The position numbers were made by a program, and so were the translations under genes. From the NCBI GenBank assembly GCA_965208725.1, contig CBDBPI010000002.1, positions 208,870 to 272,869 of the forward strand: 64,000 bases of DNA. The letters are read 5' to 3'. Source of the DNA: Dehalococcoidia bacterium. GTDB lineage: Bacteria; Chloroflexota; Dehalococcoidia; Lucifugimonadales; GCA-2712585. This document shows, one piece after another, positions 53,169 through 58,330 of this stretch. Every line of letters starts with the position of its first letter. Position 1 is the stretch's first letter. The notes under the pieces are model-generated. The model made no database searches and had not been told where the DNA came from. It saw only the letters and a program-made list of their open reading frames with translations.

Positions 53169-53232
53169 CCCCTTCCCCCTCACCCTACCCCGTGTTAACA
53201 TCCCCCTACACCCTGCGCCCCGGAGGTGCCCC

Positions 53233-53900: not shown

Positions 53901-55484
53901 ATGTCGACCATAACCACCGCCCACGAACTGCGCTCCCTCCTCTCCTCCCACAAGGAATTCGCCCTGCTCGACGTCCGAGACGCGGGTAGCTACAACAGCG
54001 CCCACATCCCTGGCGCCAGCCTCCTCCCCCGCCATCGCATCGAGTACGACCTCCCATCCCTCGTCCCCTTCTCCGGCGCTCCCCTGATCTTCTGCGACGA
54101 TGCTGGCCAACAAGCGACCCTCGCCGCCGCCACCGCCCGGAGAATGGGCTACACCCGCGTCTCTATGCTTGAAGGAGGCATCAACCGCTGGACCTCCCTC
54201 GACTTCCCCACCGAGTGGGGCACCAACGTCCCCAGCAAGGACTTCGGCGAGCGTATGGAGGTGGAATACCGCGTCCCCGAAATCGACTCCATAGAACTCA
54301 AGCGACGTATCGACTCCGGCGAGAAGCTCGTAATCTTGGACACCCGCACACCGGAGGAGTACCAGAATTTCGCAATCCCGGGAGGCCGAAGCGTTCCCAA
54401 CGGGGAGCTTGCCCTCCACGTCACCGACATCCTCAACGAGCATGGCCCCGATACAACCGTCATTCTCAACTGCGCCGGACGCACCCGCAGCATCATCGGC
54501 GCCCGCGCCCTCCAGCGCATGGGCGTCCCCAACGTCTACGGCCTCAAGAACGGCACCGCCGGCTGGGTCCTCGCAGGCCTCGAGTTGGAGACCGGCGCCG
54601 ACAAGCTCGATCTGCCAGCCGTCTCCGAACAAGGCGAAGCCCGCGCCGCTACCTACGCCGGACAGGCGGCTATGGAAGACGGCGTCCAGTTTATGGATGT
54701 TCACGAGCTCAAGCAGGTAATGGCCCGCGCCAATAGCGAGACCGTCTACCTCGTCGACGTGCGCCGTGAAGAAGAATGCCGCGCTGGCCATATCCCCGGC
54801 TTTCGCTGGTTTCCCGGTGGTCAGGCCGTCCAGCGCGCCGACGACGTTGCTCCCGTCCGCAACGCCACCATCGTATTCGCCTGCGATGGACGTGTTCGCT
54901 CCACCCTCGTCGCGTCCTGGTTCCGACAGATGGGCTTCCCCAACGTCTACGCCCTCCAGAGCGGCGTCACCCAGTGGGCTGCTCAGGGCAACGAACTGGA
55001 ACATGGTATGCCGGTGTCCCTTCCCTTCGGCCTTGAGGATGCCAGATCGAAGACGAAGTCAGTCTCGCCCCAGGACGCCGCCTCAACAAAATTCGCGGAC
55101 ACCATCTTCGTCGGCATCAGCCCCGAATTCGCCGACGGCCACATCCCCGGTGCCCGCTGGACTCCCCGCGGTTGGCTCGAGTCCATCATTGCTGACGTCG
55201 CCCCCGATAAAGCCGCTCCCATCCTCATCACTTGCGCCAATGGCCTCGACTCCATCCTGGCAGCCGCAACCCTGGCAGACATGGGGTACTCCGACGTGTC
55301 AGTGCTGGAAGGCGGCATGAAAGCTTGGCGAAGTGAAGGCTTGGATGTTGAGACCGGCCTCTCCGGCGTCATGACTCCGCCCACCGACGTTGTCGTAATG
55401 GGCCCCCACCGTTCCTACGCCGACACCATCCACTACCTCCGCTGGGAAACCGACCTCGGCCACAAATACACCCCCAAACCCTAA
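53901..55484 (+). CDS. four-domain rhodanese protein
   Basis: Four rhodanese repeats with loops CDDAGQQ, CAGRTRS, CDGRVRS and CANGLDS. I prefer the ATG at 53901, because the upstream part of the ORF runs through a repeat element. Confidence 0.8.
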   Translation: MSTITTAHELRSLLSSHKEFALLDVRDAGSYNSAHIPGASLLPRHRIEYDLPSLVPFSGAPLIFCDDAGQQATLAAATARRMGYTRVSMLEGGINRWTSLDFPTEWGTNVPSKDFGERMEVEYRVPEIDSIELKRRIDSGEKLVILDTRTPEEYQNFAIPGGRSVPNGELALHVTDILNEHGPDTTVILNCAGRTRSIIGARALQRMGVPNVYGLKNGTAGWVLAGLELETGADKLDLPAVSEQGEARAATYAGQAAMEDGVQFMDVHELKQVMARANSETVYLVDVRREEECRAGHIPGFRWFPGGQAVQRADDVAPVRNATIVFACDGRVRSTLVASWFRQMGFPNVYALQSGVTQWAAQGNELEHGMPVSLPFGLEDARSKTKSVSPQDAASTKFADTIFVGISPEFADGHIPGARWTPRGWLESIIADVAPDKAAPILITCANGLDSILAAATLADMGYSDVSVLEGGMKAWRSEGLDVETGLSGVMTPPTDVVVMGPHRSYADTIHYLRWETDLGHKYTPKP

Positions 55485-55564
55485 CCCCCTTTAGACGGAC
55501 TCCGAGCCTGGCCCTACTTTCTCTTGTATACTATCGGTAGAATAAATTCCTAAAGTGAGTCCAG

Positions 55565-56359
55565 ATGATTAAATTTCGTGGGGAATTAAGTGAACTCCAA
55601 ACCCTCGTCAATAAACTGGGATATGTAGGTGAGTGGAAGGCAGACAACGGTAAGCAAGTGTTCCGAAGTGAAGACGGGGCAGTATTGAACTGGTGGCCTT
55701 CCACCAAGACAATTCATTGTCAGGGCGCAACGGAAGCCCGTACTAAGTTGGAGTCCCAAATCGATAGTGCGTTATCAGGCAATCCCGTACCTAAGGCTGA
55801 TTCCCCTCCAAAAGAAACAGAGCAAACCTCCACTTCTGCACCTCCAGCCACTGCCCCGAGGTCCACGGCTTCCAATATAGATTCAAAAAGAGTCTTCGTT
55901 GTCTATGGGCATGATGAAACTTCACGTGATCAGCTTGAACTCGTCTTGCATCGATTGGATTTAGAGCCATTCGTTTTGGGGCTTACCAGTGGAAGGGGTT
56001 TAACGATTATTGAGGCACTCGAGGATGAGATACTGCACCCCTCCAAAGAAGAGCGCTTTGGGATGGTGTTACTTACACCTGATGATATGGGATACAAGCA
56101 AGCAGATGGTCCCACGAGTGCTACACCCCGTGCCAGACAGAATGTTGTAATGGAAATGGGGATGTTGATTGCGGCATTTGGGAGAGATAGGGTTGCGATT
56201 CTAAAGAAGGGTCACTTAGAAGTTCCGTCGGATGCTAGCGGCATAATATACCTGCCTTTCAACAACCATGTTAAAGAAGTGGCGCCCAAACTCTGTCAGA
56301 GGTTGCAAGATGCAGGCTTCCAGTTGAGTCCTGATTCAATAGCTAAGGCATCTTCCTGA
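55565..56359 (+). CDS. TIR-like (Cap12/PycTIR-type) effector-domain protein with unknown N-terminal domain
   Basis: 264 aa. The C-terminal ~150 aa carries KRVFVVYGHDE, FGMVLLTPDDMG, RARQNVVMEMGML and EVPSDASGIIYLPF. A P/S/T/A-rich linker joins it to an unassigned N-terminal ~75 aa. Low G+C. Confidence 0.7.
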   Translation: MIKFRGELSELQTLVNKLGYVGEWKADNGKQVFRSEDGAVLNWWPSTKTIHCQGATEARTKLESQIDSALSGNPVPKADSPPKETEQTSTSAPPATAPRSTASNIDSKRVFVVYGHDETSRDQLELVLHRLDLEPFVLGLTSGRGLTIIEALEDEILHPSKEERFGMVLLTPDDMGYKQADGPTSATPRARQNVVMEMGMLIAAFGRDRVAILKKGHLEVPSDASGIIYLPFNNHVKEVAPKLCQRLQDAGFQLSPDSIAKASS

Positions 56360-56838
56360 TGTTGGATAGGAAGGAAGTCACCATATATACCGATGGTGCG
56401 TGCATCGGCAACCCTGGCCCAGGTGGCTATGGTGTCGTGCTGAAATATGGAGAGCATCGACGAGAGATGAGTGAAGGTTTTCGCCGTACTACTAACAACC
56501 GAATGGAATTAATGGGCCCAATAAAAGGCTTGGAAGCGCTTAATCAAAGTTGTAGCGTAACCCTCCTCAGCGACTCGCGATATGTTGTTGATAGCATTGA
56601 AAAGGGCTGGGCCAAGCGTTGGAGAGAAAATGGTTGGAAACGCAATAAGCGGGACAAGGCCATCAACCCTGATCTTTGGGAAATACTTCTAGATCTTTGT
56701 GAGAAACACGATGTTGAGTTTCGTTGGGTCCGCGGTCACGCTGGAGACCAGGAGAACGAGCGATGCGATCAATTGGCGACTCAAGCAGCCCAAGGAGACG
56801 GATTGAAATTGGATGAAGCGTATGAATCACTCTCATAG
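56359..56838 (+). CDS. rnhA: ribonuclease HI
   Basis: 159 aa. The DEDD residues are in canonical contexts (IYTDGAC, NNRMEL, LLSDS, NERCDQLA). The start shares one nucleotide with the upstream stop (TGATG). Low G+C. Confidence 0.9.
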   Translation: MLDRKEVTIYTDGACIGNPGPGGYGVVLKYGEHRREMSEGFRRTTNNRMELMGPIKGLEALNQSCSVTLLSDSRYVVDSIEKGWAKRWRENGWKRNKRDKAINPDLWEILLDLCEKHDVEFRWVRGHAGDQENERCDQLATQAAQGDGLKLDEAYESLS

Positions 56839-56862
56839 CCGTAGCACCCTTTTTCCCTCCCG

Positions 56863-56888
56863 GTAGGGACGGGTTTTAAACCCGTCCG
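56863..56888 (+). repeat. family-B GTAGGG-hairpin repeat, copy 5
   Basis: gtagggacgggttttaaacccgtccg (GGACGGGTTT/AAACCCGTCC stem). Confidence 0.7.
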
Positions 56889-57133
56889 CTTCTTCCCACC
56901 CCTCCCCCAAAACCGCCTCTTCACCCCTTGACGCCGATCTCTCTCCCCTGCTAGTCTTCCATACATGAAACATATAAGCTCAAACAACAAAGAAACGGCA
57001 GGCTCTCCTGACCTCCTATCCATGCAGACCACCCACTCATCCGCTCGAAATTCAGACTCGTTTCCCCATTTTTTTGAACGATTATCCCCCTAATTGCCCC
57101 TTCTCAGGCACAAAATCCCCCAAAAACCCTGTC

Positions 57134-57154
57134 GACTCGTTTTCAAAACGAGTC
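57134..57154. promoter_or_regulatory. 21-nt perfect palindrome upstream of recA (possible operator)
   Basis: gactcgtttt-c-aaaacgagtc. A half-site-like copy, cagactcgtttcccc, lies about 80 nt upstream. Confidence 0.3.
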
Positions 57155-57259
57155 TCTCCGCCGCAGTGCCTTCACGGATTAGGGGGGGCCTATCCTCTAC
57201 CCTCCATCTTCTTCCGTAACACCGGTTCCTGAACCCCCCTTTATTGCCCCCAAACAAAA

Positions 57260-57288
57260 TTGCTGTTGGCAAATTTATGTGTTACTAT
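57260..57288 (+). promoter_or_regulatory. candidate sigma-70-type recA promoter
   Basis: TTGCTG-N17-TACTAT with TGT immediately 5' of the -10, about 20 nt upstream of the recA SD GGAGG. Confidence 0.45.
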
Positions 57289-57307
57289 ATGGCCCATTGG
57301 AGGCGAA

Positions 57308-58330
57308 ATGGCAAAAAAACAACAGAATGCCCTGGAAATAGCACTTACTCAGATTGAAAGACACTACGGCCGCGGGGCCGTCATGCGGCTCGGCGAGTCC
57401 GACACGGTCCATGCAACCGAAGTCATCCCCACCGGCTCCCTTGCCCTCGACCTCGCCCTTGGCGTCGGCGGCATCCCCAAGGGCCGCGTCACCGAAATCT
57501 ACGGCGCGGAGTCCGCAGGCAAGTCCACACTGGCCATCCACGTCATGGCTGAGAGCCAGAAGCAAGGTGGCGTCGCCGCCTACATCGACGTCGAACACGC
57601 CCTTGATCCCGTCTACGCAGGAAATTGCGGCGTTGACGTGGATTCCCTTCTGGTGTCCCAGCCCGACGACGCCGAGCAGGCCCTCGAAATCACTGAGTAC
57701 CTAGTCCGCAGCGGAGCCGTTCAGGTTGTTGTCGTCGACAGCGTTGCCGCCCTCGTCCCCCGCTCCGAAATCGAGGGCGACATGGGCGACACCCACGTAG
57801 GCTTGCAGGCCCGGCTCATGTCCCAGGCCCTCCGCAAGCTCACCTCCGCCATCAACCGCTCCCACACGGCCGTCGTCTTCATCAACCAGCTCCGCGAGAA
57901 GGTCGGCGTCATGTTCGGCAGCCCGGAGGTCACCCCCGGCGGTCGCGCCCTCAAGTTCTACAGCTCCGTCCGCATAGACCTCCGCCGCGTGGAGGCCCTC
58001 AAGAAAGGCTCCGATATCGTCGGCAGCCGTGTCCGCGCCCGGGTCGTCAAGAACAAGGTCGCGCCCCCCTTCCGCGTCGCCGAGTTCGACATCATGTACA
58101 GCAAGGGCATAAGCTGGACCGGCGACCTGTTGGAACTCGGCACCGGCCAGGGCCTTATCCAGAAACGGGGTTCCTTCTACTCCTACGGCGAGACGCGCCT
58201 CGGTCAGGGACGCGAAAACGCCAAGCAGTTCCTTGAAGAGAACGACGTTATGGCGAAGGAAATCGAGGCCCTTATCCGGGGTGAGAAGCCGGAGCCCGCG
58301 CCCGAGGCGGCTGCCGTCCCAGCCGACTGA
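57308..58330 (+). CDS. recA: recombinase RecA
   Basis: [30 protein letters not shown]..., Walker [10 protein letters not shown]. The ATG at 57308 follows GGAGG. Confidence 0.97.

What the first reader, a model, noticed from the sequence alone, without database searches (positions are those of the whole stretch)
55565..56838. Low-GC two-gene cassette: TIR-like (Cap12/PycTIR-type) effector with an unknown sensor domain, translationally coupled to RNase HI
Seen in the sequence:
- The two genes share one nucleotide between stop and start (TGATG at 56357-56361).
- Both are visibly A+T-richer, especially at third codon positions, than the flanking rhodanese and recA genes. This suggests joint horizontal acquisition. 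A family-B hairpin repeat lies just downstream.
- Gene 1 has KRVFVVYGHDE..., FGMVLLTPDDMG, RARQNVVMEMGML and EVPSDASGIIYLPF in its C-terminal half.
- A P/S/T/A-rich linker joins that half to a ~75-aa N-terminal domain (…LGYVGEWKADNGKQVFRSEDGAVLNWWPSTKTIHCQG…) that I cannot assign to any family.
- No CD-NTase, pyrimidine cyclase, SIR2, Argonaute or reverse transcriptase is nearby. The only partner is a complete RNase HI with all DEDD residues.

From established knowledge: I recognise the gene 1 motifs as the TIR-like NADase domain of CBASS Cap12 and Pycsar PycTIR effectors (Pfam PF10137, from memory).

Inference: to my knowledge a TIR-effector plus RNase H pair is not a described defence system. 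RNase H may sense or process RNA:DNA hybrids from invading replicons, or generate a ligand, that licenses NAD+ depletion by the TIR domain.
Basis: partly seen in the sequence, partly recalled or inferred. Interest (0 to 1): 0.8.

Follow-up and report, generated by a model that had tools for sequence, protein, structure and literature searches.

The report
TIR-like defence gene coupled to RNase HI
A candidate anti-phage "suicide" enzyme (a TIR-type NAD-destroying protein with its own unknown sensor domain) sits in a tightly overlapping operon with a fully active RNase HI, and the same pairing has arisen repeatedly in unrelated bacteria, which suggests an undescribed link between RNA:DNA-hybrid removal and TIR immunity.

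Summary
Gene 1 (55565-56359) and gene 2 (56359-56838) overlap in TGATG, and both have about 48% GC against about 63% in the flanks. Gene 1's C-terminal half is a PF10137 Cap12/PycTIR-type TIR. Gene 2 is a canonical RNase HI with all catalytic residues.

Gene 1 is not an orphan. It matches PADLOC's PDC-S35 over its full length. PDC-S35 is an untested, single-gene defence candidate, and homologues are embedded in type I R-M operons, prophages and a plasmid. Its N-terminal domain folds confidently but has no significant match in Pfam, PDB or BFVD. The same domain is also fused to deaminase and membrane effectors, so it is probably the sensor.

The RNase H pairing is not chance. RNase H is adjacent in 25 of 80 genome loci, which fall into at least five gene 1 clades. 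The partners are unrelated RNase HI lineages plus an HBD-RNase H1 type, and the stop/start overlap is conserved. RNase H is still dispensable to the family: most homologues lack it, including all 43 viral ones. One close relative deleted gene 1 cleanly and kept rnhA. Another has rnhA disrupted with gene 1 intact.

Best reading: a sensor-TIR abortive-infection protein with RNase HI as an accessory that modulates an RNA:DNA-hybrid-related trigger. The mechanism is inferred. This is a new two-gene variant of a known candidate family.

The parts
55485..55564 (+). Leader upstream of gene 1, low GC (0.475). The promoter was not identified.
   Evidence: Sequence. No sigma-70-like match on the + strand. 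In relatives L084/L085 the leader is longer, and in L083 it is retained and fused to rnhA.
55565..56359 (+). Gene 1: 264-aa PDC-S35-family protein, made of an N-terminal sensor-like domain, a disordered linker and a Cap12/PycTIR-type TIR domain.
   Evidence: ORF. PADLOC PDLC05003 PDC-S35 E=1.4e-97, residues 1-264 against profile 1-245/245. About 1900 homologues.
55565..55777 (+). N-terminal domain (aa 1-71), beta-alpha-beta4-alpha. Unassigned fold, probably the sensor or regulatory module.
   Evidence: AF2 pLDDT 92.7. No Pfam hit. Best PDB E=0.15 and best BFVD E=0.014. Invariant G22, W24, W43, Q53, G54. Also fused to a deaminase (P0380) and to a multi-TM region (P0265). It evolves faster than the TIR half: 59-69% against 80-85% identity.
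55778..55888 (+). P/S/T/A-rich disordered linker (aa 72-108).
   Evidence: pLDDT 32-49. 32-35% identity between close relatives, omega 0.75-2.2.
55889..56356 (+). TIR-like domain (aa 109-264), PF10137. The putative catalytic Glu197 is the codon at 56153-56155, in NVVMEMG.
   Evidence: Pfam. Foldseek top hits are TIR-STING (Cap12) and SPARTA TIR-APAZ. The profile aligns RARQNVVxEMG with Cap12's RDNVVFEFG in 9lmq/7un8 and with PycTIR 8jsj. E197 is invariant in 26 homologues. Omega 0.09-0.13.
56357..56361 (+). TGATG stop/start overlap between gene 1 and rnhA (probable translational coupling).
   Evidence: Sequence. TGATG or TAATG 1-nt overlaps are seen in most of the pair-bearing loci whose junction could be resolved. 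Two loci have 4-nt overlaps and the rest have gaps of 3-36 nt.
56359..56838 (+). Gene 2: RNase HI (159 aa), E. coli-type with the basic protrusion. Catalytic residues D12, E50, D72, H127, D137.
   Evidence: PF00075 2e-45. NF001236 equivalog 201 bits against a cutoff of 160. Catalytic residues are conserved in the 30 paired or lone copies of the clade, apart from one substitution at the D134 position. Omega 0.04-0.13, or 0.24 in the closest pair L083-L084.
56867..56887 (.). Perfect hairpin GGACGGGTTT-T-AAACCCGTCC, 29 nt after the rnhA stop. Possibly an operon-end structure.
   Evidence: It has no T-tract and is not called as a terminator. One similar hairpin lies at 57134-57154.

Best explanation
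This is a two-gene operon.

Gene 1 is a single-chain sensor-effector of the PADLOC PDC-S35 family. It has a small, fast-evolving N-terminal domain of unassigned fold (the presumed sensor), a disordered linker, and a Cap12/PycTIR-type TIR domain. When triggered, the TIR domain most likely hydrolyses NAD+ and aborts infection.

Gene 2 is a catalytically intact RNase HI, made in fixed proportion to gene 1 through the overlapping stop/start.

RNase HI is not the family's obligate sensor. It is an accessory that several lineages have independently bolted on. My preferred mechanism is that its hybrid-cleaving activity keeps RNA:DNA hybrids (R-loops, primers) low, and so sets the threshold for, or prevents self-activation of, the TIR protein. 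Infection or invading replicons would tip that balance. In lineages where the chromosomal rnhA already does this job, the TIR gene travels alone.

Shown here: the domain identities; conservation and co-inheritance of the pair; repeated independent recruitment of RNase H; and the separate loss of each gene.

Inferred: the defence role (the family is untested), NADase activity, and the way RNase H feeds into activation.
For: Identity:
- Gene 1 matches PDC-S35 over its full length and PF10137. Its TIR-STING and SPARTA fold matches and its aligned Glu motif agree.
- Gene 2 is an RNase HI equivalog.

Defence context of the family:
- Homologues sit between HsdR/HsdM/HsdS genes in L044, L045, L051, L072 and L080.
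- Homologues occur in E. coli prophage replication modules in 37 of 5426 genomes, on a plasmid beside an IS5 transposase and an integrase, and in 43 viral contigs.
- PDC families were defined by embedding in BREX, DISARM and type I R-M operons.

N-domain as a portable sensor: it is fused to TIR, to a kinase-like plus deaminase module, and to a multi-TM effector. It also diverges faster than the TIR half.

The pair is real:
- RNase H is immediately adjacent in 25 of 80 genome loci. Junctions are mostly TGATG or TAATG, and pair GC is below flank GC in every case, for example 0.40 against 0.67 in L079.
- None of these loci shares the window's flanking genes.
- The Chloroflexota-type pair also occurs in Vicinamibacterales and Acidimicrobiia MAGs, L012 and L067.

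Independent recruitment:
- Linked members fall in at least five gene 1 clades.
- The partners are unrelated RNase HI lineages, an upstream RNase HI in L049, and Cauli_VI(HBD)+RNase H in L060 and L063.
- Background: 1 of 58 ordinary RNase HI loci has a PDC-S35-like gene upstream.

Activity matters: the DEDD(H) residues are kept in the 30 copies, with one D134-position exception, and omega is 0.04-0.13, or 0.24 in the closest pair.

Accessory rather than essential: RNase H is absent from 55 of 80 genome loci and from 43 of 43 viral loci. L083 deleted gene 1 cleanly and kept rnhA under the operon leader. L086 and L067 carry decayed or truncated gene 1 with intact rnhA.
Against: - No experiment exists for any PDC-S35 member (none found).
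- The window's locus is not a defence island. Its neighbours are nadE, CDO, rhodanese, recA and recX, and most neighbours of the Chloroflexota pairs are housekeeping genes.
- rnhA behaves like a resident housekeeping gene. Its dS is close to that of the flanks, it is under strong purifying selection, and it persists after loss of gene 1.
- L010 keeps an intact gene 1 although its rnhA is split by a MITE-like insert. This argues against RNase HI being a required antidote, unless another RNase H compensates.
- A fast-evolving N-domain fits recognition of a variable phage protein better than recognition of a generic hybrid.
- Nothing here shows that the N-domain binds nucleic acid or RNase HI.
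- The TIR half of the full-length model has only moderate confidence, pLDDT 50-70.
Confidence: 0.4

Rival explanations
1. There is no functional coupling. rnhA is simply this lineage's housekeeping RNase HI, and a stand-alone PDC-S35 defence gene has lodged in front of it, using its expression signals. The adjacency says nothing about mechanism.
For: - PDC-S35 is catalogued as a single-gene system and is solitary in 55 of 80 genome loci and in 43 of 43 viral loci.
- rnhA stays at the rhodanese-recA site without gene 1 in L083, and is solitary in L087/L088.
- rnhA's dS and omega resemble those of flanking housekeeping genes.
- No second RNase H lies in the window.
Against: - The adjacency recurs in at least five gene 1 clades with unrelated RNase HI lineages, two gene orders and a different RNase H architecture, HBD-RNase H1. 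By a rough expectation for one gene among thousands, this is far above chance; that estimate is an inference.
- The 1-nt and 4-nt stop/start overlaps are conserved.
- In L079 and L012 both genes together are compositionally foreign.
- The Chloroflexota-type pair moves as a unit between contexts and phyla.
- rnhA itself has atypically low GC3 in every genome.
Confidence: 0.2
2. RNase HI is the upstream sensor or processor. It acts on RNA:DNA hybrids from invading replicons and produces a ligand or complex (for example short 5'-phosphorylated RNA oligomers, nicked hybrids, or hybrid-bound RNase HI) that the N-domain recognises, and this licenses TIR NADase activity.
For: - The catalytic residues are strictly conserved in the partners.
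- Translational coupling is conserved.
- An HBD-containing RNase H, which is explicitly hybrid-binding, serves as the alternative partner in Bacteroidota.
- There is a conceptual precedent in SPARTA, where an RNase-H-fold PIWI bound to a guide RNA/target DNA duplex activates a TIR NADase. TIR-APAZ appears among the fold matches.
Against: - Most family members lack a dedicated RNase H, including those on phages and those embedded in R-M operons. They could, however, use the host rnhA.
- L010 retains gene 1 with a disrupted partner.
- The N-domain evolves quickly.
- The N-domain is also attached to other effectors with no RNase H seen nearby; L170 is one example, with a truncated contig.
Confidence: 0.2
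3. The two genes are independent effectors that co-travel. RNase HI is itself antiviral or anti-plasmid, destroying R-loop or RNA primers that some phages and plasmids need for replication. It is clustered with an unrelated abortive-infection gene, as defence genes often are.
For: - Both genes are compositionally foreign and move together.
- Some pair-bearing loci lie beside other defence genes: PDC-S01, a type IIG R-M, PtuA, MADS, AriA and a CBASS cyclase.
- RNase HI is retained alone in L083 and L087.
Against: - Loose clustering does not explain the overlapping stop/start codons, or the specificity of the partner across independent recruitments.
- RNase HI has no PADLOC model hit.
- I found no literature on RNase HI as a stand-alone defence.
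Confidence: 0.12

Closest known systems
PADLOC PDC-S35 (phage defence candidate, single gene; Payne et al., bioRxiv 10.1101/2024.01.29.577857)
   Same: Gene 1 matches the PDC-S35 HMM end to end (E=1.4e-97). Homologues are embedded in type I R-M operons, which is how PDC families were defined.
   Different: PDC-S35 is catalogued as a one-gene system and is untested. Here, and in 25 of 80 genome loci, it is translationally coupled to an RNase H that PADLOC does not model.
CBASS Cap12 (TIR-STING / TIR-SAVED) and Pycsar PycTIR effectors
   Same: Same TIR subfamily (PF10137). The best sequence and fold matches in the PDB are Cap12 TIR-STING (9lmq, 7un8) and PycTIR (8jsj), with the NVVxExG Glu motif aligned. 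The presumed output is NAD+ depletion.
   Different: There is no STING, SAVED or cNMP-binding sensor, no CD-NTase and no pyrimidine cyclase. The NCBIfam Cap12 equivalogs score 27 bits against a cutoff of 450. The sensor here is an unrelated domain of about 71 aa with an unassigned fold.
SPARTA (short pAgo + TIR-APAZ)
   Same: A TIR NADase is genetically coupled to an RNase-H-fold protein that deals with RNA:DNA duplexes. TIR-APAZ chains appear among the fold matches to gene 1.
   Different: The SPARTA partner is a catalytically inactive MID-PIWI Argonaute that uses guides, and its TIR protein carries APAZ (my own knowledge, consistent with the titles). Here the partner is a small, catalytically intact, E. 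coli-type RNase HI, and gene 1 has no APAZ.
Housekeeping RNase HI (rnhA, NF001236)
   Same: Gene 2 passes the equivalog cutoff, keeps D-E-D-H-D, and is under strong purifying selection.
   Different: It is compositionally foreign in every genome examined (GC3 0.47-0.57 against 0.74-0.85). It also travels with a TIR gene across contexts and phyla.
Defensive dCTP deaminase and membrane-effector Abi proteins that carry the same N-domain (P0380, P0265)
   Same: They share the N-terminal sensor-like domain (E around 1e-15 to 1e-19) in front of a different cell-killing or nucleotide-depleting effector.
   Different: The effectors differ. No RNase H was seen in the little context available.

Membership tests
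PADLOC PDC-S35 | Full-length match to the family HMM | tested here: met
   PDLC05003 E=1.4e-97, residues 1-264 against profile 1-245/245. Four further PDC-S35 models score 1e-42 to 1e-56.
PADLOC PDC-S35 | Family members embedded in BREX, DISARM or type I R-M operons (the basis of the PDC definition) | tested here: met
   Homologues in L044/L045/L051 lie between HsdR-like and HsdM genes, and those in L072/L080 lie between HsdS-like and HsdR genes. The window copy itself is not embedded.
PADLOC PDC-S35 | Demonstrated anti-phage activity | not testable with these tools
   The PDC systems are described as 145 untested candidates. No paper mentions PDC-S35 or the E. coli homologue WP_001551506.
PF10137 Cap12/PycTIR-type TIR domain | Domain HMM above the gathering threshold | tested here: met
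   104.2 bits against 24.7, profile positions 1-118 of 119.
PF10137 Cap12/PycTIR-type TIR domain | Conserved catalytic Glu in the NVVxExG motif | tested here: met
   E197 is invariant in 26 homologues. It aligns with the Glu of RDNVVFEFG in Cap12 chains 9lmq_A and 7un8_A. That this Glu is catalytic is from my own knowledge.
PF10137 Cap12/PycTIR-type TIR domain | NAD+ hydrolase activity | not testable with these tools
   Needs a biochemical assay.
CBASS (Cap12 effector) | CD-NTase in the operon and a cyclic-oligonucleotide sensor domain (STING or SAVED) on the effector | tested here: not met
   The NCBIfam Cap12 equivalogs score 27 bits against a cutoff of 450 and cover only the TIR part. The N-domain has no Pfam or PDB match. 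The neighbours are nadE, CDO, rhodanese, recA and recX.
Pycsar (PycTIR effector) | Adjacent pyrimidine cyclase and a cNMP-binding domain | tested here: not met
   The PADLOC PycTIR hit (E=1.1e-7) covers only the TIR segment, residues 149-241. There is no cyclase nearby.
Thoeris (ThsB) | ThsB-type TIR with a ThsA-like effector | tested here: not met
   ThsB1 scores E=0.027 only. There is no ThsA-like neighbour.
SPARTA / short pAgo-TIR | MID-PIWI short Argonaute plus an APAZ domain on the TIR protein | tested here: not met
   Gene 2 is PF00075 RNase HI, not PIWI. Gene 1 has only PF10137. The similarity is limited to the TIR fold.
RNase HI (rnhA) | Equivalog HMM above the cutoff, with the DEDD(H) active site | tested here: met
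   NF001236 at 201 bits against 160. D12/E50/D72/H127/D137 are aligned to the E. coli residues.
RNase HI (rnhA) | Being the genome's sole or housekeeping RNase HI | not testable with these tools
   Only 64 kb of a 1.82-Mb contig is available and it holds no second RNase H.
Type II toxin-antitoxin module | The antidote gene is indispensable while the toxin is present | tested here: inconclusive
   Gene 1 is lost or decayed with rnhA kept in L083, L086 and L067, which is TA-like. But L010 has an intact gene 1 with a disrupted rnhA. Compensation by another RNase H is unknown.

The most novel reading that the evidence does not exclude
A new kind of two-component immune module. The cell's RNA:DNA-hybrid status, or the integrity or occupancy of RNase HI itself, is the infection signal. 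A previously unrecognised domain of about 70 aa reads that signal and switches on a TIR NADase. The same domain reads it for deaminase and membrane effectors. This would be a 'guard' on RNase H and R-loop metabolism that evolved convergently at least five times.
Probability: 0.22. Interest if true: 0.82.

Novelty: new variant of a known kind. Interest (0 to 1): 0.62.

Why it matters
TIR NADases are central to immunity in bacteria, plants and animals. What still differs between systems, and is often unknown, is what switches them on.

Here a catalogued but untested TIR candidate family turns out to be repeatedly and independently wired to an active RNase H. The partners include a hybrid-binding-domain RNase H1 type. 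That points to RNA:DNA hybrids, or RNase H itself, as part of the control logic. No described defence system uses this input with an active RNase HI.

The finding also identifies a small, confidently folded, portable N-terminal domain that is shared by TIR, deaminase and membrane effectors, which makes it a candidate new sensor module.

The prediction is cheap to test: express gene 1, with and without its partner, in wild-type and delta-rnhA E. coli. E. coli carries natural prophage-borne homologues.

If the coupling proves meaningless, the locus is still a clean example of a single-gene defence candidate in Chloroflexota.

Tried and rejected
1. HicA/dsRBD-like N-domain. One homologue (P0095) carries a precomputed PF07927 hit, and the alpha-beta-alpha order looked similar. 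But the N-domain model (pLDDT 92.7) gave no HicA, dsRBD or any other significant PDB or BFVD match, and there was no Pfam hit in 41 members. Rejected as unsupported.

2. Fortuitous adjacency on the basis of L083 (rnhA alone at the syntenic site). The alignment shows the gene 1 leader fused to the rnhA ATG, which is a deletion. Sister contigs L084 and L085 have the pair. Rejected as the sole explanation.

3. L085 seemed to lack gene 1 in the gene calls. In fact gene 1 is present (68% identity) with one A missing from a poly-A run at its start, either a frameshift or an assembly error.

4. Allelic replacement of gene 1 by recombination, as an explanation for its 70% identity against about 90% for the flanks. 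Its dS is similar to that of the flanks, and the excess divergence is in dN of the N-domain and the linker. Rejected.

5. A metagenome scan from the RNase HI side to census the close clade. It returned only 46-64% identical generic RNase HIs, so I used it as a background instead: 1 of 58 has a PDC-S35-like gene upstream.

6. RNase H next to the N-domain-deaminase fusion (L170). The downstream gene is cut off after 28 codons and does not start like an RNase H. Uninformative.

7. 'Family-B hairpin repeat'. Only two similar hairpins were found. There are no Rfam hits in 55300-57400.

8. Phage or plasmid carriage of the pair. Plasmid and phage copies of gene 1 exist, but none has RNase H.

9. A second rnhA in the genome.
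Full report
**1. Observation**

The ORF listing and the raw sequence confirm two same-strand ORFs: gene 1 at 55565-56359 (264 aa) and gene 2 at 56359-56838 (159 aa). The TGA stop of gene 1 and the ATG of gene 2 share one base in TGATG at 56357-56361. GC falls to 0.48-0.49 across both genes, against 0.61-0.68 in the rhodanese and recA genes. GC3 is 0.45/0.47 in the pair and 0.78/0.81 in the flanks. A perfect 10+10 hairpin lies 29 nt after the rnhA stop, at 56867-56887. I found only one other similar hairpin in the window, at 57134-57154, and no terminator-like T-run, so I could not confirm the "family-B repeat" label. Rfam finds nothing in 55300-57400.

**2. What the two proteins are**

Gene 2 is an ordinary-looking, E. 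coli-type RNase HI.
- It hits PF00075 at 2e-45 and passes the NCBIfam equivalog NF001236 (201 bits against a cutoff of 160).
- D12/E50/D72/H127/D137 align with the E. coli catalytic residues.

Gene 1's residues 109-233 are a PF10137 Cap12/PycTIR-type TIR domain (5.5e-30).
- A family profile aligns the invariant RARQNVVxEMG with Cap12's RDNVVFEFG in solved TIR-STING structures, and with PycTIR.
- The best fold matches of the full-length model are TIR-STING and SPARTA TIR-APAZ. The TIR half of that model is only moderately confident.

PDC families are 145 untested candidates proposed because they are embedded inside BREX, DISARM and type I R-M operons (Payne et al., bioRxiv 10.1101/2024.01.29.577857). 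Gene 1 is not a CBASS or Pycsar effector. The Cap12 equivalogs score 27 bits against a cutoff of 450, there is no cyclase nearby, and there is no cyclic-nucleotide sensor domain.

**3. The N-terminal domain**

Modelled alone with 41 homologues, residues 1-71 fold confidently (pLDDT 92.7) as beta-alpha-beta4-alpha. The domain has no Pfam hit and no significant structural neighbour in PDB (best E=0.15) or BFVD (best E=0.014).

A profile search of 1.84 billion representative proteins finds 964 proteins with the domain. Besides the TIR architecture, it sits in front of a kinase-like plus cytidine/dCMP-deaminase module (P0380), a multi-pass membrane region (P0265), and an unassigned region (P0278). 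One N-terminal module on several abortive-infection-type effectors is the usual signature of a sensor or regulatory domain (inference).

Among close relatives the N-domain is 59-69% identical and the linker 32-35%, against 80-85% for TIR and 83-95% for the flanking proteins.

**4. Is the RNase H adjacency real?**

I fetched 80 genome loci that encode gene 1 homologues.
- RNase HI lies immediately next to the homologue in 23 of them, and a Cauli_VI (hybrid-binding domain) + RNase H protein in 2 more, L060 and L063.
- In the Chloroflexota-type clade every locus has it: L001-L017, L065 and L067. This clade includes a Vicinamibacterales MAG and an Acidimicrobiia MAG.
- The junction is usually the same 1-nt TGATG or TAATG overlap. 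Pair GC is below flank GC in every case, with an extreme of 0.40 against 0.67 in L079.
- None of these loci shares the window's neighbours, and only L016 and L017 share a neighbour with each other.

In a gene 1 tree the RNase-H-linked members fall in at least five separate clades:
- Chloroflexota-type plus L012.
- L020.
- A Bacteroidota clade, in which L049 has RNase HI upstream and L060/L063 have HBD-RNase H downstream.
- L079 plus L111.
- L075.

On the RNase H side, the Chloroflexota-type partners cluster together and L079/L111 partner each other. The partners of L020, L049 and L075 are nearest to generic RNase HIs. This indicates repeated recruitment, not one ancient pair.

As a background, only 1 of 58 generic RNase HI loci with enough upstream sequence has a PDC-S35-like gene in front. 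For a single-copy gene among thousands, several independent immediate adjacencies are far beyond chance. This is an order-of-magnitude inference, not a formal test.

**5.

The closest RNase HI relatives led to three contigs with the window's gene order, nadE-CDO-rhodanese-[X]-recA-recX.
- L084 has the pair.
- L085 has the pair, with gene 1 uncalled because one A is missing from a poly-A run at its start.
- L083 has rnhA alone.

L083 and L084 are very close: their flanking proteins are 93-99% identical and their RNase HI is 96% identical. L083's rhodanese-rnhA spacer is homologous to the leader upstream of gene 1 in L084 and L085, and then runs straight into the rnhA ATG. This is a clean deletion of gene 1.

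NG86 estimates give gene 1 and rnhA dS values similar to the flanks, which means vertical co-inheritance since an ancestor at dS of about 1. They also show purifying selection on rnhA (omega 0.04-0.13; 0.24 in the closest pair, L083-L084), on TIR (0.09-0.13) and on the N-domain (0.10-0.29), with a neutral linker.

Decay goes both ways.
- L086 and L067 have a truncated or frameshifted gene 1 with intact rnhA.
- L087 and L088 have rnhA alone.
- L010 has an intact gene 1, but its rnhA is split by an insert of about 150 nt with terminal inverted repeats.

**6. Context of the family**

Homologues without RNase H sit in several kinds of place:
- inside type I R-M operons, in L044, L045, L051, L072 and L080;
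- in the replication module of an E. coli prophage found in 37 of 5426 genomes;
- on a Paludisphaera plasmid beside an IS5 transposase and an integrase;
- in 43 IMG/VR viral contigs, none with an RNase H within 5 kb.

Neighbourhoods of 17 pair-bearing loci of the Chloroflexota-type clade contain some defence genes (PDC-S01, a type IIG R-M, PtuA, MADS, AriA, a CBASS cyclase, ThsB-like TIRs), but they are mostly metabolic or housekeeping. The window's own site is not a defence island.

**7. Interpretation**

My graded confidences are:
- gene 1 is a PDC-S35-type sensor-TIR protein: about 0.95;
- the pair is a conserved, co-inherited, occasionally transferred operon: about 0.9;
- the association with RNase H is functional rather than accidental: about 0.7;
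- the module serves defence: about 0.6, since the family is untested;
- any specific mechanism: about 0.3-0.4 at most.

RNase H is absent from most family members, is kept catalytically intact where present, is supplied by different RNase H lineages, and tends to outlast gene 1. For these reasons I favour an accessory role. In that role, hybrid removal sets the activation threshold of the TIR protein or prevents its self-activation, and RNase H is provided in cis in lineages where that is needed.

The main rivals are:
- no coupling, i.e. hitchhiking on a housekeeping rnhA (0.2);
- an independent second effector (0.12).

The fast-evolving N-domain and the L010 case are the main points against my preferred model.

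**8. Comparison and novelty**

Gene 1 is a member of PDC-S35 and of the PF10137 TIR family. It is not a member of CBASS, Pycsar, Thoeris or SPARTA; for each of these the defining partners or domains were tested and not met. SPARTA is the nearest functional analogue, with an RNase-H-fold partner plus a TIR NADase. But SPARTA's partner is an inactive, guide-loaded PIWI, whereas here the partner is an active RNase HI.

I found no description of a TIR-RNase HI module in PADLOC, in a systematic TIR-system survey, or in full-text searches. This does not prove that none exists.

Verdict: a new two-gene variant of a known but untested candidate kind, with a cheap and decisive experiment available.

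**9. Unexplained**

Both genes keep GC3 at 0.42-0.57 in genomes where neighbouring genes have 0.74-0.85, although the pair has resided at this site over dS of about 1. Whether the genome encodes another RNase HI could not be tested. There is none in the window.

Noticed in passing
L010:9040-9195: The RNase HI partner is interrupted after '...HSDSQY' by an insert of about 150 nt. The insert has terminal inverted repeats (CTAAACTAAAGCCAAAGTG ... CACCTTGGCTTTGGTTTAG) and looks like a MITE. Gene 1 upstream is intact.
   Followed up: partly
L086:2429-3285: About 3 kb upstream of a decayed pair there is a second, divergent RNase_H-domain ORF (111 aa, 33% identical to the window RNase HI). It overlaps by 4 nt the end of an unannotated 174-aa ORF. 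This may be another 'X + RNase H' couple.
   Followed up: no
L083:1804-3400; L084:306-3367; L085:726-2327 (the window equivalent is the short nadE-CDO spacer at 53169-53232): Relatives carry a variable insert between nadE and the CDO-like gene: DUF5131 (phage Gp37/Gp68-like) plus an unannotated gene of about 280-360 aa. L084 also has a D12-class adenine methyltransferase there. The window lacks all of these.
   Followed up: no
window:56839-57260: The rnhA-recA spacer is strongly pyrimidine-rich on the + strand (GC skew -0.30 to -0.45). It contains two look-alike perfect hairpins, at 56867-56887 and 57134-57154. No other copies were found in the window.
   Followed up: partly
L170:3956-5809 (protein P0380); P0265 (L171-L173): The N-terminal domain of gene 1 also occurs on other effectors. 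P0380 (617 aa) combines it with a kinase-like region and a cytidine/dCMP-deaminase domain, and its gene lies directly after a DEAD/MZB helicase gene. P0265 (428 aa) combines it with a multi-pass membrane region.
   Followed up: partly
L169:5001-5762 (E. coli NZ_AP022003.1) and L081: E. coli carries a full-length family member (WP_001551506.1) inside the replication module of an integrated phage (DUF2800, DUF2815, DNA polymerase, VRR-NUC, SNF2, integrase next to yfhL). It is present in 37 of 5426 complete genomes, has no RNase H beside it, and would make a convenient experimental model.
   Followed up: partly
L052:2449-3208; L057:8001-8943; L074:7753-8489: In three loci the N-domain and the TIR domain fall in separate ORFs or reading frames. 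These may be naturally split genes or frameshifts.
   Followed up: no
L085:5205-5215: Gene 1 was not called in this contig because one A is missing from the AAAAAA run right after the ATG. This is either a genuine frameshift or a homopolymer assembly error. Gene-call-based censuses would undercount the pair for this reason.
   Followed up: yes
window:55565-56838 and L083-L085: GC3 of the pair stays low (0.42-0.57 against 0.74-0.85 in the flanks) despite long residence at the same chromosomal site (dS of about 1). The usual expectation of amelioration is not met.
   Followed up: partly
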